Assembly (NCBI GenBank): GCA_025351485.1
Contig: JANXVU010000147.1
Location: forward strand, 6,067 to 70,066
From: Candidatus Eiseniibacteriota bacterium
GTDB lineage: Bacteria; Eisenbacteria; RBG-16-71-46; JACRLI01
DNA: 64,000 bases
Reading direction: 5' to 3'
Translations under genes and position numbers: made by a program
Part shown: positions 3,318 to 55,215 of the stretch, piece after piece
Layout of the letters: each line of letters opens with the position of its first letter
Numbering within the stretch: position 1 is the stretch's first letter
The notes under the pieces: generated by a model
Told to the model about the DNA's origin: nothing
Seen by the model: only the letters and a program-made list of their open reading frames with translations
Databases searched by the model: none

Positions 3318-3596
3318 TTAACCCTGCGCCACCATGTCTTTCAATTCCTTGGAGACCTTGAACAGGGGCACCCTGCGCGCCGGCACGGGCACCGACTCTC
3401 CGGTGCGCGGATTGCGAGCCAGGCGCGGCTTGCGGTCCTTGACCTTGAATGTGCCGAATCCCCTGATTTCGATGTGATGGCCCTGCTGGAGCGACCGTGA
3501 AACGGCCGCGAGGAACTCATCCACCGTCTCTGCGACGTCTTTTTTCGTCAAGCCGGTACGCTCGGCGATTTCGTCCACGATGTCCGCCTTGGTCAT
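3318..3596 (-). CDS. HU/IHF-family nucleoid-associated DNA-binding protein
   Basis: 92 aa MTKADIVDEIAERTGLTKKDVAETVDEFLAAVSRSLQQGHHIEIRGFGTFKVKDRKPRLARNPRTGESVPVPARRVPLFKVSKELKDMV shows the bacterial histone-like fold signature (GFGTF...R.ARNP.TGE). Confidence 0.85.
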   Translation of the reverse strand: MTKADIVDEIAERTGLTKKDVAETVDEFLAAVSRSLQQGHHIEIRGFGTFKVKDRKPRLARNPRTGESVPVPARRVPLFKVSKELKDMVAQG

Positions 3597-4021
3597 CGGA
3601 CTCCTCCTCGGCTTGGCCTCAACTTGGAACGCGGCTTGACCTTAGGTGTTTGGTCGCGCTGTTGCCGAATTCATATTCCGCGATGCCCCGGAGGCTGTCA
3701 AGCTAAATGCTGATGTGGCAACGTGCAATGGGCGCGGTGCAGACTGCCCCCCTTTCGGCGCCTCCCTCGGCCAGTCCCCCAAAGACGCTGTTTTCGGCGG
3801 GTTTACCCAAGTCTAACTCATTGAACGACTTGAATTTGGAGGAGCCTCGCCGGGCCCGGCATGGCACACCGGTTGCGTTACGGGAAAGCAGCCTGATTCC
3901 GGCCCGGCGAGGACGGCAGGGGTGCTGTGGCGCAATGACGACAACGCCATCGACCACTGACCAACCGCAACGTCGCTGCTCACCCCTGTCCGTCCCGGCT
4001 GGGTTGGAATCGAGTAAAGAC

Positions 4022-40991: not shown

Positions 40992-42028
40992 GCCGTGGGC
41001 CTCCACTCGCGCACCGTGTCCACTAGGGCCTGCACGCATTCGAGCGGGGCGTTCGGCAGGATGCCGTGCCCCAGGTTAAAGATGTGTCCGGGTCTGCCGG
41101 CGTTGCTTTCCAGAACCTGCCGCGCGCGGCGGCGCACCTGGTCAGGGCCCGCGAGCAGCGAGACCGGGTCCATGTTGCCCTGGACGGCCAGGTTCGGCCC
41201 CAGAATGTCGCGCGCCGAGCCGATGTCCATCCGAAAATCCAGTCCCACCACCTGCACCGGCAACTGCGAGATGCGCTTGAGCGCCCCTGCCGTGCCGTTG
41301 GAATAGTAGATGATCGGCACGTTGTATCGCGCCATGGCCCGGGCCACCTTGTCGACCGGCCCGGCCACGTAGCGGTCGAACTCTTCGGGAGCCAGCAGCC
41401 CCGCGTGGGTGTCGAACAGCATCAGCGCGTCGGCGCCGGCCTCGGCCTGCGATCCCAGGTACTCGATGGTTCCCTGGGTGAGCGTGTCCAGCAACGCGTT
41501 GGCCGCCTCGGGCGCGGTAAACAGCAGCGACTTGATTCGCTCGAAGTTCCGCGAGCCGCCGCCTTCGACCATGTAGGTCGCCACGGTGAACGGGGCGCCC
41601 GCGAACCCGATCAGCGGCGTCTCGCCCTTCAGCAGTTCGCGCGATGCGCGCACCGCACCGGGCACGAAGGAAAGCTTTTCCGCGACCTCCCCGGTGTGCA
41701 GCTTGCTCACGTCCGCCAGCGATTCGATCCGCGACTTGAACACCGGGCCGGGATTGAATTCCACGTCCATGCCCAGCGCCTGGCAGATGAGCAGGATGTC
41801 GCTGAACAGGATCGCCGCGTCGAATCCGTAGCGGCGGATCGGCTGCACCGTCACCTCCGCGGCCAGCTCCGGCGTGCGGCACACGGTCAGGAAGTCGTGC
41901 TTCGCGCGCAGTTCCCGGTACTCGGGCAGGTAGCGGCCCGCCTGGCGCATGACCCAGATGGGAGTGCGCTCCAACGGCTGGCGGCGGCAGGCGCGGATGA
42001 AGAGCGATGTTTCGAGCGACGTGGGCAA
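40988..42028 (-). CDS. hemE: uroporphyrinogen decarboxylase
   Basis: TTG start 42026-42028 with GGGAG 6 nt upstream, giving (M)PTSLETSLFIRACRRQPLERTPIWVMRQAGRYLPEYRELR... The N-terminal block is characteristic of HemE. The stop overlaps the hemN start (ATGA). Confidence 0.9.
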   Translation of the reverse strand: MPTSLETSLFIRACRRQPLERTPIWVMRQAGRYLPEYRELRAKHDFLTVCRTPELAAEVTVQPIRRYGFDAAILFSDILLICQALGMDVEFNPGPVFKSRIESLADVSKLHTGEVAEKLSFVPGAVRASRELLKGETPLIGFAGAPFTVATYMVEGGGSRNFERIKSLLFTAPEAANALLDTLTQGTIEYLGSQAEAGADALMLFDTHAGLLAPEEFDRYVAGPVDKVARAMARYNVPIIYYSNGTAGALKRISQLPVQVVGLDFRMDIGSARDILGPNLAVQGNMDPVSLLAGPDQVRRRARQVLESNAGRPGHIFNLGHGILPNAPLECVQALVDTVREWRPTA

Positions 42029-42030
42029 GT

Positions 42031-43353
42031 CTATCTCCCGTCCCTGGCGGCGGCCAGCGACTCGGCGGCGGCGCGCAGCGTGAAATCGATGTCGGCGTCG
42101 GTGTGCGCCGAAGAAAGAAAAGCCGATTCGAACGGCGAGGGCGGCAGGTAGATCCCCCGCGCGAGCATGGCGGCATGAAAGCGCACGAACATCGCCCGGT
42201 CGGCGCGCAGGACGGACTCCATGTCGTCCACCGGACCGGGCGCGAAAAACAGGCTCCACATCGAGCCCACCTGGTTGACCGTGGCGGTGAGGCCCGCCGT
42301 GGCCACGGCCTTGCGTAGTCCTTCGGCGAGCCGGGCGGCGGACGCTTCCGCCCGCTCCGAGGCCCCGGAAGTTTCCACCTCGTGCAGCGCGGCGATCCCC
42401 GCGGCGCACGACACCGGGTTACCGGAATTGGTCCCGGCCTGGTAAACCGGGCCGGCCGGCGCGATACGCTCCATCAGGTCCGCCCGGCCGCCGTAGGCCG
42501 CGATCGGCATGCCGCCCCCGATCACCTTGCCAAGGGTCACCAGGTCCGCGCGCACGCCGTAGCGCGCCTGCGCGCCGCCGCGGGCCACCCGGAACCCGGT
42601 CATGACCTCGTCGAAGCACAGCAGCGCCCCCTCGGCGTCGCACAGCTCGCGCAGGCCCTGCAGGAATCCCGGTCGCGGCGGGAGAACACCGTAGTTCCCC
42701 ACCACCGGCTCCACGAACAGCGCCGCGATCTTCCCCGGGTGCGCCTTGAATACCGCGCGCACCGAATCCAGGTCGTTGTAGCGCGCCACCCGGGTCATGG
42801 CCGCCAGCGCCGCGGGCACGCCCGGGGAGTCCGGCAGATCCAGGGTGGCCGCGCCGCTCCCCGCCTTGACCAGGAAGGAATCCGCGTGGCCGTGATAGCA
42901 GCCGTCGAACTTAATGAGCAGGTCGCGGCCGGTGGCGGCCCGCGCCAGGCGCAGCGCGCTCATGGTGGCCTCGGTCCCGGAACTCACCAGGCGCACCCGT
43001 TCCATGTTGGGCACCAGTCTCAGGATGGCCTCCGCCAGCTCCACTTCGCCGGCGCACGGGGCCCCGAACACCATCCCGCGGCCGGCCTGCTCCTGCACCG
43101 CCCGGACCACCGTGGGCGCGCCGTGGCCCAGCAGCAGCGGTCCCCAGGCCAGCACGTAGTCCAGGTAGCGGTTCCCGTCCACGTCGAACAGGTACGGCCC
43201 CTCGGCGTGGTCCATGAACCGCGGCGTACCGCCCACCGACTTGAACGCGCGCACCGGGGAATTCACCCCGCCGGGCATGAGCGTGCAGGCCCGGCGAAAG
43301 AGTTCGGCGCTCTTCTGCACCGCGGAGGCGGCGATGTTTCCGGTGTCGGTCAT
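42031..43353 (-). CDS. hemL: glutamate-1-semialdehyde 2,1-aminomutase
   Basis: ...LMPGGVNSPVRAF...YLDYVLAWGPLLLGH...CFDEVMTGFRV...TLGKVIGGGMPIAAYGG (PLP lysine) - canonical HemL. Confidence 0.9.
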   Translation of the reverse strand: MTDTGNIAASAVQKSAELFRRACTLMPGGVNSPVRAFKSVGGTPRFMDHAEGPYLFDVDGNRYLDYVLAWGPLLLGHGAPTVVRAVQEQAGRGMVFGAPCAGEVELAEAILRLVPNMERVRLVSSGTEATMSALRLARAATGRDLLIKFDGCYHGHADSFLVKAGSGAATLDLPDSPGVPAALAAMTRVARYNDLDSVRAVFKAHPGKIAALFVEPVVGNYGVLPPRPGFLQGLRELCDAEGALLCFDEVMTGFRVARGGAQARYGVRADLVTLGKVIGGGMPIAAYGGRADLMERIAPAGPVYQAGTNSGNPVSCAAGIAALHEVETSGASERAEASAARLAEGLRKAVATAGLTATVNQVGSMWSLFFAPGPVDDMESVLRADRAMFVRFHAAMLARGIYLPPSPFESAFLSSAHTDADIDFTLRAAAESLAAARDGR

Positions 43354-43363
43354 GTCGTTCCCT

Positions 43364-44332
43364 CTAGAGCAGCTCCGCGAGCTCGCGGGCGTGGTAGGTG
43401 ATGATCATGTCGGCGCCGGCCCGGCGGATGGAGGTCAGCACCTCCAGCGCGGCTCGCTCGCCGTCCAGCCAGCCCTTTTCCGCGGCCGCCTTGATCATGG
43501 AATACTCGCCGGAAACGTTGTACGCGCACACCGGCACCCGGAAGGTGTCCTTGACCCGGCGGATGATGTCCAGGTAGGGCAGCGCGGGCTTGATCATCAC
43601 CGCGTCCGCTCCCTCGGCCAGGTCCATCTCCACCTCGCGCAGCGCCTCGTCGGTGTTCGGCGGGTCCATCTGGTAGCCGCGCCGGTCGCCGGACTTGGGA
43701 GTGGACTCGGCCGCTTCCCGGAACGGCCCGTAGAAGGCCGAGGCGTACTTGGCGGCGTAGGAAACGATCGGGGTCATTTCGAAGCCCTCGCCGTCCAGCG
43801 TCTCGCGGATCGCGCCCACGCGGCCGTCCATCATGTCGGAGGGGGCGATGATGTCGGCGCCGGCCTTGGCGTACTCGACCGCCATGCGCGAGAGCAGCTC
43901 CAGGGTGGCGTCATTGTCCACGTGGGCGTTCCTGAGCACGCCGCAGTGGCCGTGGTCGGTGTACTCGCACAGGCACACGTCGGTCCACACCACCAGGTCG
44001 GGGTGCGCCTTCTTGAGCGCCCGGACGGCGGTGGCCACCACGCCCTTGGGATCGTAGCCGGAGGAGCCCAACGCGTCCTTGGTCTCGGGGATTCCGAACA
44101 GCAGCACCGAGTTCACCCCGCGTGCCAGCGACTCGCCGGCGGCCTTCACGGTGAGGTCGACGGACTGCTGCGAATAGCCGGGCATGGATGCGATGGGCCG
44201 GTCCAGCCCCTGGCCCGGGCACACGAACAGCGGCTGGACCAGCTGGTCCGGGGAGACTCGGGTCTCGCGCACCAGGGCGCGCAGCGCGGGCGTGCGGCGA
44301 AAGCGGCGCATGCGAAGCTCGGGAAAATTCAC
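43364..44332 (-). CDS. hemB: porphobilinogen synthase (delta-aminolevulinate dehydratase)
   Basis: RMRRFRRTPALRALVRET...VLLFGIP...CLCEYTDHGHCG...SDMMDGRV...YAAKYASAFYGPFREA...VMIKPALPYLDIIR - the active-site Lys blocks. Confidence 0.9.
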   Translation of the reverse strand: MNFPELRMRRFRRTPALRALVRETRVSPDQLVQPLFVCPGQGLDRPIASMPGYSQQSVDLTVKAAGESLARGVNSVLLFGIPETKDALGSSGYDPKGVVATAVRALKKAHPDLVVWTDVCLCEYTDHGHCGVLRNAHVDNDATLELLSRMAVEYAKAGADIIAPSDMMDGRVGAIRETLDGEGFEMTPIVSYAAKYASAFYGPFREAAESTPKSGDRRGYQMDPPNTDEALREVEMDLAEGADAVMIKPALPYLDIIRRVKDTFRVPVCAYNVSGEYSMIKAAAEKGWLDGERAALEVLTSIRRAGADMIITYHARELAELL

Positions 44333-44339
44333 TTCGGGT

Positions 44340-45092
44340 TCATCCTTTCAGGATCGAGGTCAGGGCCTCGGCCACGCCCTCTCCGTCGGCGGCCGGGGCG
44401 CGCATCACCCGGGTCGCTCCGGCGCGGGTGAGGCGGATCTCGGTCGTCGTGCCCTGGGCGATGCAGGGAATTCCCATCAGCGTGCGCCACGCCGCGCTGT
44501 CCATGTTCTGCCGCAGCGAATCCACGGCCGAGGGCGACGCAAACACCGCCGCCGCCAGCAAGTGCTTGTCCATGGCGGAAAGAAGCTGCGCCACGTTCAC
44601 GTGCACCCCGATGGTGCGATAGACTTCCAACTCTTCCACTTCCCACCCGGCATCTTCCAGCGCGTCGGGCAGCGTGTCGAGCGACAGATTGCCCCTCAGG
44701 AACAGCGCCCGCCGCGGCTCGGGGTGACGGGCCAGCAGCCATTCGGCCATCTCCAGCGCTCCGGTGCCGGGCGAGATTTCCACTTCTACTCCCAGGCGCG
44801 CGAGCGGCTCGGCGGTGGCCTTTCCAACCGCCACGCACACCGGCAGCACTTCCAGGTCCGGCCCGAGGGCCGCGGCCAGGGCCGCGGAAGCCCGCGCGCT
44901 GGTGAGCGCGATCAGGTCGGGGGGAGTGTCCGAGCGCAGCCTTTCCGAAAGTTTCGAGATCTCGCGGCCGGGCTCGAACCGCAGCACTTCCAGTTCGATC
45001 TGGGCGCAGCCGGCCGACTGGACCGCGTGCCGCTCCGGGCAGTCCTTGTCGAGGACCCGCGTGAACAGGACCTTCCGGCGTCCCTCGCTCAT
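44340..45092 (-). CDS. hemD: uroporphyrinogen-III synthase
   Basis: 250 aa with a HEM4 two-lobe pattern (VLFTRVL...ALTSARA...; ...LFLRGNLS...AAVFASPSAV...). Sits between hemB and hemC. Confidence 0.8.
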   Translation of the reverse strand: MSEGRRKVLFTRVLDKDCPERHAVQSAGCAQIELEVLRFEPGREISKLSERLRSDTPPDLIALTSARASAALAAALGPDLEVLPVCVAVGKATAEPLARLGVEVEISPGTGALEMAEWLLARHPEPRRALFLRGNLSLDTLPDALEDAGWEVEELEVYRTIGVHVNVAQLLSAMDKHLLAAAVFASPSAVDSLRQNMDSAAWRTLMGIPCIAQGTTTEIRLTRAGATRVMRAPAADGEGVAEALTSILKG

Positions 45093-45105
45093 CGGTCGCG
45101 CTTGC

Positions 45106-46008
45106 TCACAGGCTCGGCAGCAATTCCGCGGCGCCCTGCTCCAGCAGCGCCGTGGCCACCTGCCGGCCCAGCGCCTCGGGGTCGCGGGCGGTGCCGGCGC
45201 CCGAGGCGCGCAGCACCGTCTTGCCGTCCAGCGAGCAGGCGCATCCGGTCAGGAGCAGCCGGCCGTCTTCGATGCGGCCCCAGCCGCCGATCGGGAGCCG
45301 GCACCCGCCGCCGAGCCGGCGCAGAAGCGCTCTCTCGGCCAGCACCGCCGCCTTGGTGTCGGCGTGGCTGATCCCCACGGCCGCGGCGCACGTCTCGGTG
45401 TCGCCCGAGCGGGCCTCCAGCCCCAGCGCGCCCTGCGAGATGGCGGGCAGCATCACCTCGGGCTCCAGGACCTGCGTGATCCGGTCCGCGAGCCCGAGCC
45501 GCTTCAGCCCGGCCACGGCCAGCACGATGGCGTCGAACTCTCCCTCGTCCATCTTCCGGATGCGCGTGGGCACGTTGCCGCGGATCTCCACGCATACCAG
45601 GTCCGGGCGCGCCGCCAGCACCTGGGAACTTCGCCGCTGCGAGGAAGTGCCGACGCGGCCGCCCGCGGGGATTCGTTCCAACGTCAGGCCGCCGCGCGAG
45701 AGCCACGCATCCCGCGGATCCTCCCGCACCGGCACGCCCGCCAGGGTCAACCCCTCGGGCAAAATGGTGGGCAGATCCTTCAAAGAATGCACCGCCAGGT
45801 CGGCCACCTCGCCGAGCAGCGCCTGCTCCAGCTCGCGCGTGAACACCCCGAGCCCGCCGATTTCTGAAAGCGGGCGCACCCGGTCCTTGTCTCCCGAGGT
45901 GCGGATCTCCAGGAGCTCCACCCCCGGAACCCCGGCATCCCGGAGCAGACCTGCAATGTGGTTGGACTGTGCCAGCGCCAGCGCGCTAGCGCGCGTCGCG
46001 ATCTTCAT
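45106..46008 (-). CDS. hemC: hydroxymethylbilane synthase (porphobilinogen deaminase)
   Basis: MKIATRASALALAQSNHIAGLL...AVHSLKDLPT...RVGTSSQRRSSQ...IRGNVPTRIRK...GGCRLPIGG (dipyrromethane cofactor Cys). Confidence 0.9.
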   Translation of the reverse strand: MKIATRASALALAQSNHIAGLLRDAGVPGVELLEIRTSGDKDRVRPLSEIGGLGVFTRELEQALLGEVADLAVHSLKDLPTILPEGLTLAGVPVREDPRDAWLSRGGLTLERIPAGGRVGTSSQRRSSQVLAARPDLVCVEIRGNVPTRIRKMDEGEFDAIVLAVAGLKRLGLADRITQVLEPEVMLPAISQGALGLEARSGDTETCAAAVGISHADTKAAVLAERALLRRLGGGCRLPIGGWGRIEDGRLLLTGCACSLDGKTVLRASGAGTARDPEALGRQVATALLEQGAAELLPSL

Positions 46009-47284
46009 CGGTCTCCCCTGGCCCGGTGGGCTCTTTCTCGAGGTCGAACAGGTGCCGCACCGCGCCCGCCAGTTCCGGGCCTCGGCGCGGATCGTCCTTG
46101 GCCTGCATCAGGCGCAGGGTCGGTTCACGAAGTATATCGTTGATGATGCTCCGCGTGAGCAACTCCAGCTTTTCGCGGTCCTCCGCGCGGAACTTGCCCG
46201 CCACCGCCTCCACCCGCGCGTGGCGCAGCGATTCCAGCCGCGAGCGCATGTCGGCCAGCGTCGGCGTGACGGCAAGGCTGCGGTACCAGTCCAGGAACTT
46301 CGCGCTCTCTTCGGCGACGATCGCCTCGGCCCGCGGCGCCTCGCGGCGGCGGCGCTCCAGGTTGTCGTCCACGATGGACTTCACGGATTCGGTGGAATAC
46401 ACGAACACGTTGGAAATCTTGTTCACCGCGGGATCCACGTCGCGGGGCATGGCCAGGTCCACGATCACCATGCTGCGGCCGCGCCGTGCGCGGATCGCCT
46501 GCCGCACCATCTCCTCGCCGATCAAAGGCGCCGGGGACGAGGTCGCGCTGAACACCAGGTCGGCTTCGGGGAGCAACCTGGGCAGGTCCTCCAGCGAATG
46601 GGCGCGACCTCCGAGGCGCTGGGCCAGGACCCCGGCGCGCTCCAGGGTGCGGTTGGCCACCGTGAAATCCTTTACGCCGGCGTCGCGCAGGTAGTCTGCG
46701 GCCACGCGGCAGGTCTCGCCGGCGCCCACGATCAGCACCCGGGTCTCCTGGAGCGCGCCCAGCACCTTGGCGGCCAGGCCCACCGAGACCGAGGCCATGG
46801 AAATGGAGCCCTCGGTGAGCGAAGTTTCGGTGCGCACCCGGCGAGAGCAACGCACCGCGCTGTCCACCATGCGGCGCAGCACCGGCCCGCTCGCGCCCAT
46901 TCGCGCGGCGAGGTCGGCGGCGTTGCGGACCTGGCCGGCGATTTCCGTCTCCCCGATCACCATCGAGTCCAGCCCCGAGGTGACGCGAAAGAAGTGGGGC
47001 ACGGTGTCGGCGGTCTTCCAGACGTAGGTGAGTCCTTCGTGCTCCAGGATGTCCACGCCCTTGAGCCATCGGAAGATCGCGGCCAGCGCTTCCACCGGCG
47101 GCTGTTCCTCCGGGCTGCGCGCGTAGAACTCCATGCGGTTGCAGGTGGCCAGGATGAGGGTTTCCTTGTGGCCTTCCTCGCGCAGCCGGCTCAGGGCCTT
47201 CTCGGTTTCTTCCGGAGTGAGCGCCACGGCTTCGCGGATCTCGGCGGGCGAAGTCGTGTGGTTCAGTCCGATGCAGTGGATCAT
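45986..47284 (-). CDS. hemA: glutamyl-tRNA reductase
   Basis: ATG 47282-47284. MIHCIGLNHTTSPAEIRE...LILATCNRMEFY (catalytic Cys)...VLIVGAGETCRVAADYL. Its 3' end overlaps the hemC start by 23 nt. The 198-codon N-terminal extension of the listed ORF is an artefact. Confidence 0.9.
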   Translation of the reverse strand: MIHCIGLNHTTSPAEIREAVALTPEETEKALSRLREEGHKETLILATCNRMEFYARSPEEQPPVEALAAIFRWLKGVDILEHEGLTYVWKTADTVPHFFRVTSGLDSMVIGETEIAGQVRNAADLAARMGASGPVLRRMVDSAVRCSRRVRTETSLTEGSISMASVSVGLAAKVLGALQETRVLIVGAGETCRVAADYLRDAGVKDFTVANRTLERAGVLAQRLGGRAHSLEDLPRLLPEADLVFSATSSPAPLIGEEMVRQAIRARRGRSMVIVDLAMPRDVDPAVNKISNVFVYSTESVKSIVDDNLERRRREAPRAEAIVAEESAKFLDWYRSLAVTPTLADMRSRLESLRHARVEAVAGKFRAEDREKLELLTRSIINDILREPTLRLMQAKDDPRRGPELAGAVRHLFDLEKEPTGPGETDEDRDAR

Positions 47285-47289
47285 GCGGC

Positions 47290-48111
47290 CTACCTGAACT
47301 GGTGGAACGACCCGGCGAGGTGTCCCGGGATCAGGGTCGAGATCAGGAGCAGGCCGAAACCCGCGAGCGACAGGTACACCGTGAGCGTCCCGCCCCGGTG
47401 CAGCCGGTAGTGCACGAACAGCGCGCTGCCCGAGACCAGCCACACCAGCACGGTCAGGATCACCTTGGGGTCGGCGTAGTAGCCCGGAAACACGTGCGAG
47501 ATCCACACGATTCCCAGGATGATGGTGATGCCCAGCAGCGTGAATCCCGCGGCGGTGGACCGGATCATGGTGCGCGAGAGTTCGTCCAACGACGGCAGCC
47601 GGTGGTAGACCAGCGAGAAGCGGCCGAGCTTGAGTTCGTGGTAGAGCAGCAGGAACAGCACGCCGTAGACCGCGGCCAGGGCCAGCGCGCAGTAGCTGGC
47701 GATGGCGGCCAGCGTGTGCATGGCAAAAAGCGGAGAGCGCAGGACCGCCGAAGGATGCGGCTCGGTTCCGAAGCCCAGCGCCCCGGGCAGCATGAGCAGG
47801 GCCACCACCGCGACCACGAACATTCCGATCATGGGCGTGCCGCGGCGGATCTCGATCCAGAAGTAGCAGATCGCCAGGCACAGCGCGACCATGCCCAGGG
47901 CCTCGCCCGCGCTGGTGATGGGAAGCATTCCCAGCTTGGTGGCCCGAAGCATCAGGGCGTTGGCGTGCAACAGGATGGCAGCCATCAGGAGCGGCTGCGC
48001 GGCGCGGCCCAGGCCCGGGGCGCGGCCCCAGAACACGGCGGCGTAGGAGGCGGCGGTCAGGGCGTACATTCCGAGCACCAGGAGCAGGATCAGGGACACG
48101 AGGGCTTCCAT
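47290..48111 (-). CDS. CcsA-family (cytochrome c assembly / HemX-like) polytopic membrane protein
   Basis: ATG 48109-48111. 8 TM segments with the CcsA-like Trp-rich region ...ICYFWIEIRRG... and conserved His-containing helices. Sits directly upstream of hemA, as in B. subtilis hemAXCDBL. Confidence 0.7.
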   Translation of the reverse strand: MEALVSLILLLVLGMYALTAASYAAVFWGRAPGLGRAAQPLLMAAILLHANALMLRATKLGMLPITSAGEALGMVALCLAICYFWIEIRRGTPMIGMFVVAVVALLMLPGALGFGTEPHPSAVLRSPLFAMHTLAAIASYCALALAAVYGVLFLLLYHELKLGRFSLVYHRLPSLDELSRTMIRSTAAGFTLLGITIILGIVWISHVFPGYYADPKVILTVLVWLVSGSALFVHYRLHRGGTLTVYLSLAGFGLLLISTLIPGHLAGSFHQFR

Positions 48112-48227
48112 GGATACGGGGTGGACTCCGCCCGGCCGGGGATCTCCCGGTCCGGTAACCCTAAGAATATAATGGTGGAAGGCGATTCTGACAAACGGGG
48201 AGTACCGGGGGGCCGGCCTTGCCGGAC

Positions 48228-49490
48228 CTAGCCCACCTTGCGGGTCGGCACGATCACGTTGGCCAGCAGCATCCCGGCGGCCAGGGCGGCCGTCATCAGC
48301 AGCATGCGGAAGGCGGTTTCCACGCCCGGCACCACCTCGTGACCCATGAGCGAAAGCAGGCTCCGAAAACCCATGCTTCCCGGCACCAATAGAATTAGCC
48401 CCGGCACGAGGGTGACCGTGGGCGGCCGCCGGAAAACGCGGCTGTAAAGATTGCTCGCCACCCCCAGAGCCAGCGAGCCCACGAACACTCCCAACCGGTG
48501 CCCCAGCAGCACTCCTCCCAGGCGCGCCCCGCCGAACCCCGCCAGGCCGGCGGCCAGCACCCACGGGATGTCCCGCGGCGCCGCGCGAAAGAGCACGCTG
48601 AACGCCAGCGGTCCCACCACGAGGCCCACCGCCGTGGTCCATGGAGGCAGCGCAGCCACCAGGGCCGGCCCGGGAACTCCAAAGACCGATGCCGCCACCG
48701 TGTTTCCGACCGCCACACCAAAGGCGATCGCCAGGAACAGCATGAACGCTCCGGCCAGGCGCGTCGTGCCCGACACCAGGTGGCGGGAAGAGAGTTCCAT
48801 CATGGCCAGCGTCAGGGTGAGGCCCGGCAGCACCACCAGCAGGCTGGCCAGGGTGACGTTGGAAGTGTCCAGTCCGTGCAGGCTACGCGCGGCCCCGGCC
48901 GAAAGAAACGCCGCCACGAAGGCCGCCGCCGGCTCGAACACCCGGCCGGTGCCGGGGCTTCGCGTGAGCAGCAGCGCCAGCAGGCCGGTCAGGAGGCCGA
49001 TCACCCCGGCCACGGCCGCTTCGCGCGCCCCCCCGCCCAGCAGCACCGCGCCCGCACAGGCCGACACCGCCGAGGCCAGCAGCGTGAGAGCCGAACGGTA
49101 GCGCCGGGGAGCCGCCACGATTTCCTGGATCCGGGCCAGTCCTTCGGCGGGATTGCCGCCGCCGTGCAGGACCTTCTGGGCCACGCCTTCCAGGTCGGCC
49201 AGTTTTTCCAGGTTCACTTCGCCGGGCTCGGCGCGCAGCAGGAACGACTTCTGTTCCGGGAGCGGCCCGAAGGCCGCAAAGATGGCCGTGGGAGTGGAAA
49301 AGAACTGTCCCACCACCCCCAGCCGGAGGGCCGCGTGCTCCAGGACTTCTTCAAGGCGCTGGGAAGAGTAACCGTAGCGATGGAGGGCGCGGGCGAGCTG
49401 CAGGATGAAGTGGATAGGCTCGCGGTCGGGCGTGGCGGGAGATTCGGAGGCGGCGGATACGGCGGAACCTGGAGCAGGCCTTTCGGCCAT
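48228..49490 (-). CDS. ThrE-family putative threonine/serine exporter (DUF1212 + DUF3815)
   Basis: Cytoplasmic N-domain IHFILQLARALHRYGYSSQRLEEVLEHAALRLG..., then 10 Gly/Ala-rich TM helices typical of ThrE. Confidence 0.75.
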   Translation of the reverse strand: MAERPAPGSAVSAASESPATPDREPIHFILQLARALHRYGYSSQRLEEVLEHAALRLGVVGQFFSTPTAIFAAFGPLPEQKSFLLRAEPGEVNLEKLADLEGVAQKVLHGGGNPAEGLARIQEIVAAPRRYRSALTLLASAVSACAGAVLLGGGAREAAVAGVIGLLTGLLALLLTRSPGTGRVFEPAAAFVAAFLSAGAARSLHGLDTSNVTLASLLVVLPGLTLTLAMMELSSRHLVSGTTRLAGAFMLFLAIAFGVAVGNTVAASVFGVPGPALVAALPPWTTAVGLVVGPLAFSVLFRAAPRDIPWVLAAGLAGFGGARLGGVLLGHRLGVFVGSLALGVASNLYSRVFRRPPTVTLVPGLILLVPGSMGFRSLLSLMGHEVVPGVETAFRMLLMTAALAAGMLLANVIVPTRKVG

Positions 49491-49759
49491 CAGTCCACGT
49501 CCACCCGGTCCACCACACCGACCACCATGGTGCGCACCGGGCCCTGCTTGATGCCCAGGATCTGGGAGGCGGCGTTGCCCTCGTCCACCACCAGGACCTT
49601 TTCGCCTTCGCCGGCGGACACGGTGTCGAGCGCGATCACCGGCGGGCCCTTGGGCTGATCCTTCTCATCCACGAGCTGCACGTACAGCAGCTTGTGGCAG
49701 CAGAGGGGATCGATCTTGACAGTGGCGACCACTTCGCCCACCACGATGCCGAGCTTCAT
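49490..49759 (-). CDS. bacterial microcompartment vertex protein (BMC-P; EutN/CcmL/PduN family)
   Basis: 89 aa MKLGIVVGEVVATVKIDPLCCHKLLYVQLVDEKDQ...VIALDTVSAGEGEKVLVVDEGNAASQILGIKQGPVRTMVVGVVDRVDVD aligns along its full length with the EutN/PduN consensus (M.lg.VvG.VvaT.K...L.G.KLL.V...AlDtVgAG.GE.VLV..G.aA.....PvdamvVGvvDrVd). Its ATG directly follows the dNK stop. Confidence 0.8.
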   Translation of the reverse strand: MKLGIVVGEVVATVKIDPLCCHKLLYVQLVDEKDQPKGPPVIALDTVSAGEGEKVLVVDEGNAASQILGIKQGPVRTMVVGVVDRVDVD

Positions 49760-50437
49760 CTAGCCCGCCGTGCCGCTGCGCGCGGGCTGGGCCGGCTGCG
49801 GATCGCGCTTGACCGTGCCGGTCTCCCGGCACAGGACGTCCAGGAGCTCTTCGACCTCCGCCGAGCCGTCCAGGTCCTTGAGCGTGTTGGTGTCGATCCG
49901 GACCACGCGCGTGGCCGACGCCATTTCCGTGGCCCAGCGCTCGTAGCTCTCTTCGAGGCCCGCCAGGTACTCGCGGGAAATGGTGCGCTCGCAATCCCGG
50001 CCGCGCTGGGCGATGCGCCCGAGCAGCGTGTCGGGCGAGGCGGCCAGAAAGACAATCATGTCGGGGTGGCGGAACTCCTGTAGAAAGCGCTCGTACTCGG
50101 CGCGATAGTAGGCGTGCTCCTCGGCGGTCATCATGCCCATGTCGTGCAGCGCCCGCTCGAACACCTCGGCGTCTTCGTAAATGGTCCGGTCCTGGATGAA
50201 ATGACGTTCGGAGCTCATCATGCGGCGCTGGAACTTGACGCGGTGCTCCAGGAAGTAGAGCTGCGACTTGAGCGCCCACTTCTTCATGTCGGCGTAGAAG
50301 TCGGCCAGGTGCGGATTTTCCACGGAGGGCTCGAAATACGCGATCCAGTCCAGGCGCGCATGGATCAAGCGCGTGAGATAGGTCTTACCGACCCCGATGT
50401 TGCCGGCGATGGCGAGGAAGAACGGTCGCGATTCCAT
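49760..50437 (-). CDS. deoxynucleoside kinase (dGK/dCK/TK2 family)
   Basis: ATG 50435-50437. FLAIAGNIGVGKTYLTRL (P-loop), FEPSVENP..., ERHFIQDRTIYEDAEVF (ERS/DR motif), LQEFRHPDMIVFLAASPDTLLGRIAQRGRDCE (LID). Confidence 0.85.
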   Translation of the reverse strand: MESRPFFLAIAGNIGVGKTYLTRLIHARLDWIAYFEPSVENPHLADFYADMKKWALKSQLYFLEHRVKFQRRMMSSERHFIQDRTIYEDAEVFERALHDMGMMTAEEHAYYRAEYERFLQEFRHPDMIVFLAASPDTLLGRIAQRGRDCERTISREYLAGLEESYERWATEMASATRVVRIDTNTLKDLDGSAEVEELLDVLCRETGTVKRDPQPAQPARSGTAG

Positions 50438-50669
50438 TGAAAAACGATTATCGCACCACAGGTGACAGCTTACAAGGATTGGCTGCGCGACAGGTGACGC
50501 GGGGGGAAAAATTTGCGCCGGCCCTGGTCGCCGCTCGCACAAGGCGTGGCGGGCGATAGAGCCGGCGGCAAGTTCTTAAAGGCCGGGGGGAAACCGCCTC
50601 GAGGGGCGGTGTCCCTTCACATCGTTGGATGCTTTTCGGTGCGATTTAGTTCCGGAAAATCTGCGTTTT

Positions 50670-51128
50670 CTAGTCGCGATCGCGATCCCGGTCCCGGTCC
50701 TCGTCGCCATGGCGTCCGTGGTCGTGATGTTCGCGCTTCATCTTCCAAAGGTGGCGCGAATCCCGGTCCTCGTACATGCCATGGTGATAACGGCGATAGT
50801 GCCGGTTGGCGCCGAGCAACTGGCGAGGCACGCGATCGATTCCCACGGACATCCAGGGCCCGCGGTGCGCGCGCGACCAGAACCAGTTGCGGCCGCGGCA
50901 GGAGTACCAGCCGCCTTCCCCGCGATAGACTTCGGCTTCCTGGTAGTCGGCGGCGTACCCGGATCGGGTTCCCGGCTCCAGGACGCACCCCGCTTGATCT
51001 CCCCCGCTCCGGACATCCACATGGATATACGTGGCGGCGGAAGCTACCGTGACGCTGAATCCGACGGTCACCAGGACCGCCAGGGCGGCCGCGGCCCCCA
51101 GCCGTAGTTGCTTCGATGTCAAGTTCAT
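50670..51128 (-). CDS. secreted protein with a His/Asp/Arg-rich C-terminal tail
   Basis: GGGAGGAG RBS, ATG 51126-51128. Signal peptide MNLTSKQLRLGAAAALAVLVTVGFSVTVASA, then ...WYSCRGRNWFWSRAHRGPW..., ending RYHHGMYEDRDSRHLWKMKREHHDHGRHGDEDRDRDRDRD. Confidence 0.5.
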   Translation of the reverse strand: MNLTSKQLRLGAAAALAVLVTVGFSVTVASAATYIHVDVRSGGDQAGCVLEPGTRSGYAADYQEAEVYRGEGGWYSCRGRNWFWSRAHRGPWMSVGIDRVPRQLLGANRHYRRYHHGMYEDRDSRHLWKMKREHHDHGRHGDEDRDRDRDRD

Positions 51129-51289
51129 GCGCTCCTCCCTTTCCAGGGCCCCGAGCTGGCCTGTCCGGATGTCTGGAATCCTCAATTGCGTCCCAAACTC
51201 GAGCTCGAATCCATAGATCCTGCATAAGGCAACGGGCGTGCCGGACCTGGGGCTACTGTAGAAAACAGACTAAGACGCTATCAAATTAA

Positions 51290-51482: not shown

Positions 51483-52151
51483 ATGCCCAGCCCAACCGTG
51501 GAAAACTACCTGAAAGCGTTGTTCCAGCTCGCCGTTCCGGAGCGGGGGGTCAGCACGCGCGAGCTGGCCGGCAGGTTGCTGGTCAAGGACGCCTCGGTCA
51601 CCCATATGCTCAAGCGGCTGTCCGGGACCGGGATGGTGAGCTACGAGCCGTACCGGGGGGCGACCCTTACACCGGAGGGACGGCAGGCGGCCACGGCGGT
51701 CCTGCGGCGCCACCGAATATTGGAATTGTTCCTTCACCGGATGTGCCGGCTGTCGCTGGACAAGGTGCACGCCGAGGCGGAGCGGCTGGAGCACGCCGCC
51801 TCCGAGGACTTCGTGGACGCCCTGGACCGGCTGATGGACTTTCCCACCCTGGATCCGCATGGAGATCCCATCCCCGACCGCGAAGGCCGGCTGCGCGGGA
51901 TCGACTCCCGCCCGCTGACCGATATCCCACCGGGCGCACGGGTGGTGCTGGTGCGCGTGGAAGATGCCCGCCCGGAGGCCCTCACTTACCTGGTCAGCGA
52001 GGGACTGGTCCCGGGCCGCAAAGTCACGGTGGCGCGCCGGCTGGACTTCGATGGATCGGTGGAGCTCCAGTTGGGCCGCCGCCGCCTCATGCTGGCACGC
52101 GAGCTGGCCGAGGGCATCCATGTGACCCCCGACGAGGGGAGCGCGGAATGA
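51483..52151 (+). CDS. mntR: DtxR/MntR-family metal-dependent transcriptional repressor with a C-terminal FeoA/SH3-like domain
   Basis: MPSPTVENYLKALFQLAVPERGVSTRELAGRLLVKDASVTHMLKRL (wHTH); the metal-site helices ...RRHRILELFL...HAEAERLEHAASEDF...; C-terminal ...GARVVLVRVED... (FeoA-like). Confidence 0.85.
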   Translation: MPSPTVENYLKALFQLAVPERGVSTRELAGRLLVKDASVTHMLKRLSGTGMVSYEPYRGATLTPEGRQAATAVLRRHRILELFLHRMCRLSLDKVHAEAERLEHAASEDFVDALDRLMDFPTLDPHGDPIPDREGRLRGIDSRPLTDIPPGARVVLVRVEDARPEALTYLVSEGLVPGRKVTVARRLDFDGSVELQLGRRRLMLARELAEGIHVTPDEGSAE

Positions 52152-53566
52152 GCTCTCCCAACCCGAAGCAGCCCGAGAGGTCCGCCCCGCCCGGGCGTCC
52201 TTCCACGCCGTCCCTTTCGGAGGTTTTCCGAAGCGTCCCGGTCAGCGGACGCGGCTGGCTCCGACGGCTGTTCGCCTTTGCGGGGCCGGGCTATCTGGTG
52301 AGCGTGGGCTACATGGACCCGGGCAACTGGGGCACCGACATCGCCGGCGGCGCGCAGTTCGGCTATGCGCTGCTGTGGGTGATCCTGCTTTCCAATCTCA
52401 TGGCGATGCTGCTGCAGACCCTGTGCGTGCGACTGGGCCTCGCGACCGGAAGAGACCTGGCGCAGGCGTGCCGGGACTACTACAAGAGGCCGGTGGCCGT
52501 GGCGCTGTGGCTGCTGTGCGAGATCGCCATCGTGGCCTGCGACCTGGCCGAGGTGGTGGGTTCGGCCGTGGCGCTCAACCTGCTGTTCCATATCCCGCTG
52601 CTGTGGGGCGTGCTCATCACCGGGCTGGACGTGCTGCTGCTGCTGGGCGCCATGAGTTTCGGATTCCGAAAGATCGAGGCCGTGGTGGTCACGCTGGTGT
52701 TCACGGTGGGGATCTGCTTCGCCATGCAGACCTTCCTGGCCCACCCGGCGTGGCCGCAGGTGGCCGCGGGCTTCGTGCCGAGCATTCCGGGGCCGCAGGC
52801 CTTCGTGATCGCGCTCGGGATCCTGGGAGCGACGGTCATGCCGCACAATCTGTACCTGCATTCGGCGCTGGTGCAGACCCGCGCGAGCCGGCAGACGCCC
52901 GCGGGTATCACCGAAGCCATCAAGTTCAACACCATCGACACCATCGTGGCGCTGGGCGCGGCGTTCTTCGTGAACGCGGCCATCCTGGTGGTGGCATCCG
53001 CGGTGTTCCACACTCGCGGATACACCCACGTCTCGGAGCTGCAGGAGGCGCACAAACTGCTCACCCCGCTGCTGGGCGCCCCGGTGGCGGCCACGGCGTT
53101 CGCGGTGGCGCTGCTGGCCTCGGGGCAGTCGTCCACCATCACCGGAACGCTGGCCGGGCAGATCGTGATGGAAGGCTTTCTCAACATCCGGATCCGGCCG
53201 TGGCTGCGGAGGATCATCACCCGGAGCCTGGCGATCATTCCGGCGATGGTGCTGTTCTCCTTCACCGGCGGCAGGGACACGGTGGCCCTGCTGGTCATGT
53301 CCCAGGTGGTGCTGTCGCTGCAACTCTCCTTCGCGATCTTTCCGCTGATGATGTTCACCAGCGACCGGCGGCTCATGGGCGAGTTCGTGAACCCGCCGGC
53401 GCTCAAGATCGCGGGCTATGCGACGTGCCTGCTGATCGCCTCGCTGAATGCCTACTACTTGTACACCAGCATCGGGCCGCTGTGGCTGGGCGTGGTGGCC
53501 GCGGCGATGATTGGTTTTGCGGTCTGGGTCCGGTATTTCTACCGGGAGGGCCCGGCGGCCGCCTGA
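52148..53566 (+). CDS. mntH: NRAMP-family divalent metal (Mn2+/Fe2+) transporter
   Basis: ATG overlaps the mntR stop (ATGA). ...FAFAGPGYLVSVGYMDPGNWGTDIAGGAQFGYALLWVILLSNLMAMLLQ... (DPGN motif) and MPHNLYLHSAL (consensus transport motif). Confidence 0.9.
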   Translation: MSSPNPKQPERSAPPGRPSTPSLSEVFRSVPVSGRGWLRRLFAFAGPGYLVSVGYMDPGNWGTDIAGGAQFGYALLWVILLSNLMAMLLQTLCVRLGLATGRDLAQACRDYYKRPVAVALWLLCEIAIVACDLAEVVGSAVALNLLFHIPLLWGVLITGLDVLLLLGAMSFGFRKIEAVVVTLVFTVGICFAMQTFLAHPAWPQVAAGFVPSIPGPQAFVIALGILGATVMPHNLYLHSALVQTRASRQTPAGITEAIKFNTIDTIVALGAAFFVNAAILVVASAVFHTRGYTHVSELQEAHKLLTPLLGAPVAATAFAVALLASGQSSTITGTLAGQIVMEGFLNIRIRPWLRRIITRSLAIIPAMVLFSFTGGRDTVALLVMSQVVLSLQLSFAIFPLMMFTSDRRLMGEFVNPPALKIAGYATCLLIASLNAYYLYTSIGPLWLGVVAAAMIGFAVWVRYFYREGPAAA

Positions 53567-53668: not shown

Positions 53669-54310
53669 ATGGAACGCAAGGATCTGGAAGGTCTGGTTCG
53701 GCAGTTGGTGACGGACGTGGTGGCCCGCGTGGATGCGGCCGCCAAGGCTCCGGTGGCCCCGCCGTGCCATGAAACCGAGCCGCTTTCGCCGAAAAAGTCC
53801 GCGGCTCCGGCCGGGGCCTCGCCCGCCGCCGCGGGACCCGCGCCGCTCTCCAAGGAGCTTCGCGTGGTGATCGGCTCCGACCATGGCGGCTTTGCGCTGA
53901 AAGAGGAGCTGGTCTCGCACCTGCATGCGCTGGGCTACGCGGTGATCGACGTGGGCACGCACGGCACCGAGGCGGTGGACTATCCTGACTTTGCCAAGGC
54001 GGTGGCCCAGCGGGTCGCGCGCGGCGAATGCGACCGTGGGATCGTCATCGACGGGGCCGGGATCGGCTCCGGGATGGCGTGCAACAAGGTGGCCGGTGTT
54101 CGCGCCGCGGTGTGTCACGACCTGAAGAGCGTGCTGAACTCGCGCGACCACAACGACGCCAACGTGCTTTCCCTGGGCTCCGGCGTGGTGAGCCCCGAAC
54201 TGGCCCGCGAAATGGTGGCCACCTGGCTCAAGACCCCCTTTGGCGCCGGCCGCCACTCCCGCCGGATCGCCAAGATCAACGAACTCGACCGCGACAGGAC
54301 CCGCGCATGA
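53669..54310 (+). CDS. rpiB: ribose-5-phosphate isomerase B (RpiB/LacAB family) with a 62-aa N-terminal extension
   Basis: Core [19 protein letters not shown]...[30 protein letters not shown]...[10 protein letters not shown] is RpiB. The extension [21 protein letters not shown] + [40 protein letters not shown] is a predicted amphipathic helix followed by an Ala/Pro-rich linker. Confidence 0.85.
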
Positions 54311-55215
54311 CCGACCCCAAGCTGATCGAAGCCATCGTCCAGGAAGTGCTGCGCCGCCTGCCGTCCTCCGCGGGAGCCAGCACCTGCGGCGACTGCACCT
54401 CGTGCGGGCACTGCGCGGTGAAGAAGCCCGAGATGATCAAGAGCCTCGTGGACCAGGGCGCCTGCCGCATCGGCTGCTGCCCCGGCGTGGGATCGGGCAT
54501 GCCGCCCACGCTGGCCTGCCTGATCGACCACACCCTGCTCAAGCCCGACGCCCCGCGCTCCGACGTGGAAAAGCTGTGCACGGAAGCGCTCGAGTACAAC
54601 TTTGCCTCGGTGTGCATCAACCCCTCGTGGGTCTCCCTGTGCCGCGACAAGCTGCGCGGCAGCGAGGTCAAAGTTTGCACCGTGATTGGTTTCCCGCTGG
54701 GGGCCAACACCACCCAGACCAAGGCGTTCGAAACCCGGCGGGCCATCCTGGACGGGGCCACCGAGGTGGATATGGTGATCAACGTCGGGCGGCTCAAGAG
54801 CGGCGACAACGACTACGTGGAAAAGGACATTCGCGAAGTGGTGGAGCAGGCCCGCCCCAACGTGCTGACCAAGGTGATCCTCGAGACCGCCCTGCTCAGC
54901 AAGGAAGAGATCGTGCGCGCTTCGCTGCTCGCGCGTTCCGCCGGGGCCAACTTCGTGAAAACCTCCACCGGGTTCGCCTCCGGCGGGGCCACCGCCGAGG
55001 ACGTGCGCCTGATGCGCCAGGCCGTGGGCGACCGCATGGGCGTGAAAGCTTCCGGCGGCATCCGAGACCGCAAAGTGGCCGAGGAAATGGTGGAGGCCGG
55101 CGCAACCCGCATCGGCGCCTCCGCCAGCGTGAAGATCGTGACCGAGGCGGCGGCCGCGGCCGGCGCGCCCAAGGCGGTCACCGAGAGCGCGGCCTCGGCA
55201 AAGTCGCAGTACTAG
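54307..55215 (+). CDS. deoC: deoxyribose-phosphate aldolase (DERA) with a 78-aa N-terminal extension
   Basis: ATG overlaps the rpiB stop (ATGA). Core [14 protein letters not shown]...CINPSWV...[12 protein letters not shown]...[10 protein letters not shown]...[10 protein letters not shown] (Schiff-base Lys)...VKASGGIRD is DeoC. The extension [18 protein letters not shown] + [50 protein letters not shown] is a predicted amphipathic helix followed by a Cys-rich segment. Confidence 0.85.

What the first reader, a model, noticed from the sequence alone, without database searches (positions are those of the whole stretch)
49490..50437. Orphan BMC vertex protein (EutN/CcmL family) translationally coupled to a deoxynucleoside kinase
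An 89-aa ORF aligns along its whole length with the EutN/PduN/CcmL pentamer family. Its ATG immediately follows the stop of a dGK/dCK-type deoxynucleoside kinase. No BMC-H hexamer gene exists anywhere in the 64-kb window. A vertex protein next to a deoxynucleoside-metabolism gene, 4 kb from the EP-tagged RpiB/DERA pair, suggests a deoxyribose-linked microcompartment assembled from dispersed loci. Alternatively the pentamer may be used outside a shell context.
Basis: partly seen in the sequence, partly recalled or inferred. Interest (0 to 1): 0.65.

Follow-up and report, generated by a model that had tools for sequence, protein, structure and literature searches.

The report
Microcompartment vertex gene in nucleoside-kinase operon
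A real gene for the five-sided corner protein of a bacterial microcompartment sits away from the other shell genes, fused into an operon behind a deoxynucleoside kinase; this rare layout ties a widespread DNA-sugar-degrading organelle of untested function to nucleoside scavenging.

Summary
Window 49490-49759 (minus strand) encodes an 89-aa protein that matches PF03319 end to end (E 4.7e-23). Its model has the BMC-P fold (TM 0.85 to EutN, GrpN and CcmL) and it is under purifying selection. Its ATG abuts the TAG of a PF01712 deoxynucleoside kinase, and its TGA overlaps the ATG of a ThrE-family gene. The 64 kb holds no BMC-H, BMC-T, aldehyde dehydrogenase or second BMC-P.

The protein is the third paralog ("P3") of the BMC-P triplet of sugar-phosphate-utilisation (SPU) type metabolosomes. 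In 103 of 110 informative genomes, P3 is the last gene of a main locus (RpiB-DERA-H-P1-AldDH-T-P2-P3). None of 119 sampled loci has a kinase nearby. The kinase-P3 pair recurs in all six contexts of the window's own clade. It also recurs in a second, divergent clade, where P3 lies among hpt, dNK, udk and tdk beside an encapsulation-peptide-tagged RpiB, and a related fragment continues into a nucleoside ABC transporter.

The best reading is a satellite SPU locus, with the vertex protein co-expressed with nucleoside phosphorylation and the facet genes elsewhere. I could not reach the rest of this genome, so "orphan" is shown only for the window. This is a new variant of a known kind, of moderate interest.

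The parts
49490..49759 (-). BMC-P vertex protein gene, P3 paralog of the BMC-P triplet (89 aa; stop TGA at 49490-49492)
   Evidence: PF03319 full length, E 4.7e-23. Model has the BMC-P fold, TM 0.85. 53-57% identical to Eisenbacteria P3 against 32-40% to P1 and P2, and it shares the P3 one-residue insertion and DEGNxAxQ motif. dN/dS 0.08-0.37.
49760..50437 (-). Deoxynucleoside kinase gene (225 aa); its TAG stop (49760-49762) abuts the BMC-P ATG
   Evidence: PF01712, E 3.5e-45. Junction sequence read. The same gene pair occurs in L006, L014, L018, L156 and L019-L021.
48228..49490 (-). ThrE-family membrane protein gene (420 aa); its ATG shares one base with the BMC-P stop. Third gene of the unit, but not conserved outside close relatives
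   Evidence: PF06738 and PF12821. Present in L014 and L156, replaced by an unrelated 208-aa gene in L006.
50447..50475 (-). Promoter-like site (TTGTAA, 17 nt, TG-n-GATAAT) ending 10 nt before the dNK ATG
   Evidence: Consensus scan. The -10 block GGTGCGATAAT is conserved in L014 and L006. This is an inference, not evidence of function.
50506..50571 (-). Conserved G+C-rich hairpin followed by a U-run. It is probably the terminator of the upstream 171-aa gene, and it marks the dNK-P3-ThrE unit as a separate transcript
   Evidence: Folding energy -35.4 kcal/mol, z -3.45. Stem arms conserved in L014, L006 and L018.
53669..54310 (+). RpiB (213 aa) with a 65-aa N-terminal extension that begins with an amphipathic encapsulation-peptide-like helix ([17 protein letters not shown])
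   Evidence: PF02502 on residues 66-203. Comparable extensions occur on RpiB in canonical SPU loci L072, L086, L114, L135 and L142.
54307..55215 (+). Deoxyribose-phosphate aldolase (DERA, 302 aa) with an N-terminal encapsulation-peptide-like helix ([14 protein letters not shown]) and a Cys-rich linker; ATGA overlap with RpiB
   Evidence: PF01791 on residues 69-270. Junction read. The same kind of helix precedes DERA in many SPU main loci.
51483..53566 (+). MntR-type repressor and Nramp transporter between the two BMC-related units. Context only, probably unrelated to the compartment
   Evidence: Pfam annotations of the identical genes in L001 and L014. Also conserved beside the dNK-P3 pair in L006.

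Best explanation
The ORF encodes a functional pentameric vertex protein. It is the P3 paralog of the BMC-P triplet of an SPU-type (deoxyribose and ribose phosphate utilising) metabolosome. In this lineage, whose P3 groups with Candidatus Eisenbacteria, P3 has left its usual place at the 3' end of the main shell operon. It is now the second gene of a short dNK-P3-ThrE unit with its own promoter. That unit lies 4 kb from, and divergent to, the RpiB-DERA cargo pair that carries encapsulation peptides. Together these form a satellite locus. The stop/start abutment makes P3 synthesis follow dNK translation, so the vertex protein is made when the cell expresses deoxynucleoside phosphorylation. P3 pentamers would then cap, or change the vertices of, a shell built from BMC-H, BMC-T, P1 and P2. 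Those genes, and the aldehyde dehydrogenase, would be encoded elsewhere in the genome. [quoted passage not shown] Shown here: gene identity, fold, selection, P3 orthology, gene junctions, cargo tags, rarity of the arrangement and its recurrence. Inferred: the existence of the remaining shell genes, pentamer assembly, co-regulation by nucleosides, and any role of dNK in feeding the pathway. One such route would be dNMP converted to deoxyribose-5-phosphate by an N-glycosidase, which I did not find.
For: Identity and fold. P3 orthology: the alignment and identity matrix and a neighbour-joining tree that places the window clade with Eisenbacteria P3. Normal position of P3: a motif scan of species-representative genomes gave 119 loci; P3 directly follows another BMC-P at the end of a main locus in 103 of 110 informative loci, often RpiB-DERA-H-P1-AldDH-T-P2-P3. 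Eisenbacteria main loci read H-H-P1-AldDH-T-P2-P3-HU. Cargo: the window's RpiB and DERA carry N-terminal amphipathic extensions like those of SPU-locus enzymes. Purifying selection: dN/dS 0.05-0.37. The window protein keeps the 12 invariant and 16 near-invariant columns of the P3 alignment. Recurrence: all six window-clade contexts are dNK then P3 (window, L001/L002, L014, L006, L018, L156). A second clade has a dNK 43-44% identical and a P3 49-54% identical. In L019 the order is EP-RpiB, amidohydrolase, Hpt, dNK, P3, Udk, TK. In L026 it is P3, Udk, TK, a PnrA/Bmp nucleoside-binding protein and an ABC ATPase. Separate transcription unit. The literature proposes that SPU compartments degrade DNA-derived sugar phosphates, defines satellite loci and describes the BMC-P triplet (PMC8217296, PMC4207490, PMC12747264).
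Against: No BMC-H, BMC-T, P1, P2 or AldDH was found for this organism. The 64-kb window has none, and I could not reach the rest of the genome; searches with Eisenbacteria AldDH and P2 returned thousands of hits, none traceable to it. The kinase makes dNMPs, which are not a known direct substrate of DERA, so the metabolic link is indirect. The third gene of the unit varies (ThrE or an unknown gene). L006 has an 80-nt gap between dNK and P3, so tight coupling is not universal. The tree rests on about 90 residues and cannot tell one ancient relocation from two independent ones. Promoter and terminator calls are consensus matches only.
Confidence: 0.68

Rival explanations
1. P3 is an ordinary shell vertex protein of a dispersed SPU compartment, and its position behind dNK is a neutral rearrangement product with no functional link to nucleoside metabolism.
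For: Within the window clade the whole neighbourhood is syntenic (MntR-Nramp, unknown gene, dNK, P3, then CcsA-HemA), so adjacency there could be inherited inertia. The gene after P3 is not conserved. Other P3 satellites in Chloroflexota sit beside unrelated genes: a GNAT-Dabb protein, a sensor kinase and unknowns.
Against: The same dNK-then-P3 order, with overlapping or abutting reading frames, occurs in a clade whose dNK is only 43-44% identical. There the operon is otherwise entirely nucleoside salvage and uptake genes and lies beside EP-RpiB. Against this, no dNK neighbour appeared in 119 sampled P3 loci.
Confidence: 0.2
2. The lineage has lost the shell facets, and this BMC-P works outside any compartment. 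It could, for example, act as a small OB-fold pentamer that scaffolds or regulates nucleoside-kinase or sugar-phosphate enzymes.
For: No BMC-H or BMC-T lies in 64 kb or on any contig recovered for this clade or the L019 clade. The window clade has lineage-specific features such as a Cys pair in the β1-β2 loop. [quoted passage not shown]
Against: RpiB and DERA keep encapsulation-peptide-like extensions that serve no known purpose without a shell. P3 keeps all family-invariant residues and the BMC-P fold. Every well-sampled relative of this P3 sits in a full shell locus. Main and satellite loci tens to hundreds of kb apart are normal.
Confidence: 0.1
3. The ORF is a decaying remnant of a broken-up SPU locus and is not functional.
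For: It is isolated from the other shell genes, and RpiB-DERA and P3 are normally the two ends of one locus.
Against: The reading frame is intact in at least 13 clusters at 90% identity. dN/dS is well below 1. The operon junctions are conserved. The Pfam match is full length.
Confidence: 0.02

Closest known systems
P3 member of the BMC-P triplet in SPU-type metabolosome loci (Sutter et al. 2021, PMC8217296; H1, P1, H2, T, P2, P3 operons in PMC12747264)
   Same: Same protein subfamily: 53-57% identical to Eisenbacteria P3, with the shared insertion and DEGNxAxQ motif. Same fold. The same partner enzymes (RpiB PF02502 and DERA PF01791 with encapsulation peptides) are encoded nearby.
   Different: It is not the last gene of a shell operon after P2. 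It is instead the middle gene of a dNK-P3-ThrE unit, with no H, T, P1, P2 or AldDH within 64 kb.
Satellite BMC loci, for example the Haliangium ochraceum type I satellite (two BMC-P plus an aldolase), CcmK3/K4, and HO genomes with EP-tagged DeoC elsewhere (Sutter 2021; Axen 2014, PMC4207490)
   Same: Shell gene(s), with or without cargo enzymes, encoded away from the main locus. Separate regulation of a shell component is the proposed rationale.
   Different: The partner gene here is a cytosolic-type nucleoside kinase. In the second clade the partner is a whole nucleoside salvage and uptake operon. The two surveys I read do not mention this, and a full-text search for 'microcompartment' plus 'deoxynucleoside kinase' found nothing relevant.
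EutN, CcmL, GrpN and HO BMC-P, the structurally solved vertex pentamers (2hd3, 2qw7, 4i7a, 5v74)
   Same: Fold match at TM 0.83-0.86 and 35-44% identity. Conserved N-terminal GxVVxTxK, AGxGE and VG(I/V)VD blocks.
   Different: P3-specific one-residue insertion and a DEGNAASQ helix replace the GSSAR-type segment. That segment is the least confident part of the model (pLDDT 62-76). The oligomeric state was not tested.

Membership tests
BMC-P / EutN_CcmL (PF03319) | Significant full-length match to the family profile | tested here: met
   81.9 bits against a gathering cut-off of 25, residues 1-84 on profile positions 1-83 of 83.
BMC-P / EutN_CcmL (PF03319) | OB-like β-barrel fold of solved vertex proteins | tested here: met
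   AlphaFold2 model with pLDDT 86.9. Foldseek TM 0.85 and rmsd 1.5 Å to EutN 2hd3, and also to GrpN, CcmL and the HO shell BMC-P.
BMC-P / EutN_CcmL (PF03319) | Forms pentamers that occupy shell vertices | not testable with these tools
   Only a monomer prediction was available. No multimer modelling or experiment was possible.
BMC-P / EutN_CcmL (PF03319) | Co-occurs with BMC-H (PF00936) in the same genome | tested here: inconclusive
   Absent from the 64-kb window.
P3 paralog of the BMC-P triplet | Closer to P3 than to P1 or P2 of triplet loci, with P3-specific sequence features | tested here: met
   53-57% identity to P3 against 32-40% to P1 and P2. Shared insertion and DEGNxAxQ motif. Groups with Eisenbacteria P3 in the neighbour-joining tree.
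P3 paralog of the BMC-P triplet | Encoded directly after P2 at the 3' end of the main locus | tested here: not met
   Preceded by dNK and followed by ThrE. This contrasts with 103 of 110 informative P3 loci.
SPU-type metabolosome | Signature enzymes PF01791 (DeoC/DERA) and PF02502 (RpiB) | tested here: met
   Both are present 4 kb away as an overlapping gene pair.
SPU-type metabolosome | Cargo enzymes carry encapsulation peptides | tested here: met
   N-terminal amphipathic extensions of 65 and about 68 aa, of the same kind as in canonical SPU loci. Encapsulation itself was not tested.
SPU-type metabolosome | Acylating aldehyde dehydrogenase plus BMC-H and BMC-T shell genes | tested here: inconclusive
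   None in the window. The genome-wide state is unknown.
Satellite BMC locus (Sutter 2021 definition) | Shell gene(s), with or without enzymes, distal from a main locus that holds BMC-H and BMC-P | tested here: inconclusive
   The locus has BMC-P and enzymes and no BMC-H (met). The existence of a main locus in this genome was not shown.
Deoxynucleoside kinase (PF01712) | Full-length profile match with a P-loop | tested here: met
   154.7 bits, residues 8-195, with P-loop GNIGVGKT. Substrate specificity was not tested.

The most novel reading that the evidence does not exclude
P3 is not just a spare vertex. It would be a separately regulated, substrate-linked shell component. Its synthesis would be coupled to nucleoside uptake and phosphorylation so that SPU compartments are completed or re-tuned only when nucleosides or DNA are available. 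P3 might also dock the nucleoside kinases or admit nucleotide-derived sugar phosphates at the vertices. That would give the unexplained BMC-P triplet a function and would identify the physiological feedstock of SPU compartments.
Probability: 0.15. Interest if true: 0.7.

Novelty: new variant of a known kind. Interest (0 to 1): 0.45.

Why it matters
SPU compartments are among the most widespread bacterial microcompartment types; Sutter 2021 counts more than 280 loci in 26 phyla, and a 2025 preprint reports them in Asgard archaea. The sources I read treat their role in degrading nucleic-acid-derived sugars as a genomic inference. The reason for three BMC-P paralogs is also open. In this arrangement the third paralog lies inside nucleoside kinase and transporter operons next to tagged cargo. 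That is independent gene-context support for the nucleoside hypothesis. It also points to P3 as the paralog to test for conditional, substrate-linked expression. If the link is only a rearrangement, the locus is simply one more satellite.

Tried and rejected
1. I tried to find the main shell locus of the window's own genome.
- The Eisenbacteria AldDH search gave more than 8000 candidates, and the top 120 were all 75-82% identical.
- The P2 profile search gave 6319 hits.
- Context look-ups of P0274 and P0148 were ordinary three-P Eisenbacteria main loci from other organisms.
- A look-up of an edge gene to see beyond the window returned only short contigs.
- Cluster look-ups gave no organism names.

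2. The metagenome scan with the BMC-P was noisy: 600 pattern matches and only 11 real. It still yielded the decisive L019-L021 and L026 loci.

3. I considered Ser in DEGNAASQ as a marker of kinase-linked P3 and rejected it.

4. I considered the window's HU gene (3318-3641) as the empty site of a lost main locus and rejected it. None of the Eisenbacteria flanking genes (RNB, PilZ, AroA, Opp) is in the window.

5. Rfam found no riboswitch or other RNA family in the window.

6. The repeated ACAGGTGAC in the dNK promoter is over-represented in the window. It is not conserved in relatives, so I did not pursue it.

7. The dNK has no obvious encapsulation-peptide extension. Its C-terminal tail looks like the ordinary end of the family, so it is treated as cytosolic.
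Full report
**1.

On the minus strand, 49490-49759 encodes an 89-aa protein. It matches Pfam PF03319 (EutN_CcmL) from end to end: E 4.7e-23, 81.9 bits against a cut-off of 25.

Its closest solved relatives by sequence are EutN and several CcmL proteins. An AlphaFold2 model built on 40 homologs has a mean pLDDT of 86.9. It superposes on EutN, GrpN, CcmL and the BMC-P of the Haliangium ochraceum shell at TM 0.83-0.86.

The gene upstream (49760-50437) is a PF01712 deoxynucleoside kinase, E 3.5e-45. The junction reads TAG|ATG with no spacer.

The BMC-P stop overlaps by one base the ATG of a 420-aa ThrE-family membrane protein.

A hairpin with a U-run lies upstream of the kinase (-35.4 kcal/mol, z -3.45). 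It is conserved in relatives and is followed by a conserved extended -10 element that ends 10 nt before the kinase ATG. This suggests that dNK-P3-ThrE is its own transcription unit. These are consensus-level inferences.

**2. No other shell gene lies in the window**

- tblastn with textbook BMC-H sequences found nothing but this ORF.
- tblastn with real BMC-H, BMC-T, P1, P2 and aldehyde dehydrogenase sequences from related loci also found nothing else.
- Pfam scans of about 46 window ORFs show heme biosynthesis, type IV pilus and type II secretion genes, regulators and transporters, and no PF00936.

**3. The neighbouring RpiB and DERA are microcompartment cargo**

RpiB (53669-54310) and DERA (54307-55215, ATGA overlap) carry N-terminal extensions of 65 and about 68 residues. 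Each extension begins with an amphipathic helix: [17 protein letters not shown] in RpiB and [14 protein letters not shown] in DERA.

The same kind of extension precedes RpiB and DERA inside canonical microcompartment loci from many phyla. From my own knowledge, these helices resemble the experimentally defined PduD and PduP encapsulation peptides.

PF01791 plus PF02502 are the signature enzymes of the sugar-phosphate-utilisation (SPU) microcompartment. That compartment is proposed to degrade deoxyribose-5-phosphate from DNA breakdown (Sutter 2021 and Axen 2014).

**4. The protein is the P3 paralog**

Its relatives at 52-60% identity lie in Candidatus Eisenbacteria contigs. There they are the third BMC-P at the end of a complete locus: H-H-P1-AldDH-T-P2-P3-HU.

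The window protein is 53-57% identical to those P3 proteins and only 32-40% identical to P1 or P2. It shares a P3-specific one-residue insertion and the motif DEGNxAxQ.

A tblastn panel then classified them:

| Class | Loci |
|---|---|
| P3 directly after another BMC-P at the end of a main locus, often RpiB-DERA-H-P1-AldDH-T-P2-P3 | 103 |
| P3 apart from other shell genes (five of the seven are Chloroflexota) | 7 |
| Uninformative (P3 at the block edge) | 9 |
| Any deoxynucleoside kinase in the block | 0 |

The phyla covered include Acidobacteriota, Chloroflexota, Planctomycetota, Verrucomicrobiota, Gemmatimonadota and Myxococcota.

This matches the "BMC-P triplet" described by Sutter 2021. 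P3 normally belongs to a full shell operon, so the window's arrangement is a rare exception.

**5. The kinase-P3 pairing is not a one-off**

All six contexts recovered for the window's own clade (75-100% identical P3) show dNK immediately followed by P3. They are the window, L001/L002, L014, L006, L018 and L156. The gene after P3 is ThrE in the window, L001/L002, L014 and L156. It is an unrelated gene in L006 and is not visible on the short L018 contig.

More telling is a second, lower-G+C clade from metagenomes (L019-L021, L026). It has the same order although its kinase is only 43-44% identical and its P3 49-54% identical.

- In L019 the order is RpiB with an 86-aa extension, an amidohydrolase, a phosphoribosyltransferase, dNK, P3, a uridine-kinase-family protein and thymidine kinase.
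- In L026, P3 is followed by uridine kinase, thymidine kinase, a PnrA/Bmp nucleoside-binding protein and an ABC ATPase.

In that clade P3 is embedded in a nucleoside uptake and phosphorylation operon beside tagged cargo.

A neighbour-joining tree places both kinase-linked clades with Eisenbacteria P3. About 90 residues cannot decide between one ancient relocation and two independent ones. Either history argues for maintenance of the link.

**6. The gene is functional**

- Pairwise dN/dS is 0.08-0.37 in the window clade and 0.05-0.08 in the second clade.
- The window protein keeps the 12 invariant and 16 near-invariant columns of the P3 alignment.
- At least 13 clusters at 90% identity keep the frame intact.

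**7. Best explanation and its limits**

The locus is best read as a satellite of an SPU-type compartment. The vertex paralog P3 is co-transcribed and translationally coupled with a deoxynucleoside kinase. The tagged RpiB-DERA pair lies 4 kb away, and the facet proteins and aldehyde dehydrogenase are presumably elsewhere.

What I could not show is the "elsewhere". I could not obtain the rest of the genome. Homolog searches with AldDH and P2 were swamped by thousands of Eisenbacteria sequences. The two candidates I looked up belonged to other organisms. A shell-independent role for this pentamer therefore remains possible, at about 10%. The retained encapsulation peptides and invariant residues argue against it.

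The biochemical role of the kinase is also inferred. It makes dNMPs, not deoxyribose-5-phosphate. It either competes with catabolism as salvage, or feeds it through an N-glycosidase that I did not find.

**8. Comparison with what is known**

SPU compartments, BMC-P triplets, satellite loci and EP-tagged DeoC genes away from the shell locus are all documented. This is not a new kind of system.

The two surveys I read do not mention a link to nucleoside kinases. A full-text search for "microcompartment" plus "deoxynucleoside kinase" returned one irrelevant paper. A 2025 preprint on archaeal SPU compartments derives deoxyribose-5-phosphate through nucleotidase, phosphorylase and mutase and does not invoke these kinases.

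I rate this a new variant of a known kind, with moderate interest. It offers context evidence for the untested substrate of a very widespread organelle. It also gives a handle on why there are three vertex paralogs.

Noticed in passing
window 54307-54510 (DERA N-terminus); also L083, L102, L105, L141, L146, L148: Between the encapsulation-peptide-like helix and the DeoC domain, DERA has a Cys-rich stretch ([10 protein letters not shown]...ACRIGCC). Similar Cys-rich stretches followed by a GAxRI motif occur in DERAs of several canonical SPU loci. This may be a metal or Fe-S site; the function is unknown.
   Followed up: partly
window 49694-49714 (BMC-P residues 16-22): P3 proteins of the window clade carry a Cys pair or Cys-x2-Cys in the β1-β2 loop (PLCCH, SICCH, CPICNH). 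Main-locus P3 proteins lack it.
   Followed up: partly
window 50447-50575, minus strand: A conserved hairpin with a U-run is followed by a conserved TG-extended -10 that ends only 10 nt before the dNK ATG. This implies a leaderless or near-leaderless dNK-P3-ThrE transcript. ACAGGTGAC occurs twice here (3 in the window against 0.29 expected) but is not conserved in relatives.
   Followed up: partly
window 39597-48100, minus strand: A long same-strand heme biosynthesis cluster lies directly downstream of the dNK-P3-ThrE unit: HemN-like radical SAM, HemE, HemL, HemB, HemD, HemC, HemA and CcsA. A separate promoter-like site lies at 48166-48194.
   Followed up: no
L044 (JAIWHF010000058.1, labelled Methanosarcinales archaeon): This contig carries a complete bacterial-type H-P1-AldDH-T-P2-P3 locus. 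Its P3 is nearly identical to that of an Anaerolineales MAG (L071). Mis-binning or recent transfer are the likely explanations.
   Followed up: no
L051, L058, L091, L094, L110 (Chloroflexota MAGs): These form a different class of P3 satellite. P3 is separated from the other shell genes and sits next to a GNAT-Dabb protein, a large sensor kinase or unknown proteins. These P3 sequences cluster together in the tree.
   Followed up: partly
L095 (CAYLSO010000059.1): This Eisenbacteria-like main locus reads H-H-P1-T-P2-P3-HU, with no aldehyde dehydrogenase between P1 and T. It shows further plasticity of these loci.
   Followed up: no
window 50670-51185, minus strand; L006 4570-5082; L156 338-877: A conserved 150-180-aa protein with a signal-peptide-like N-terminus and a His/Arg/Asp-rich C-terminus precedes dNK throughout the window clade. 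It has no Pfam match.
   Followed up: no
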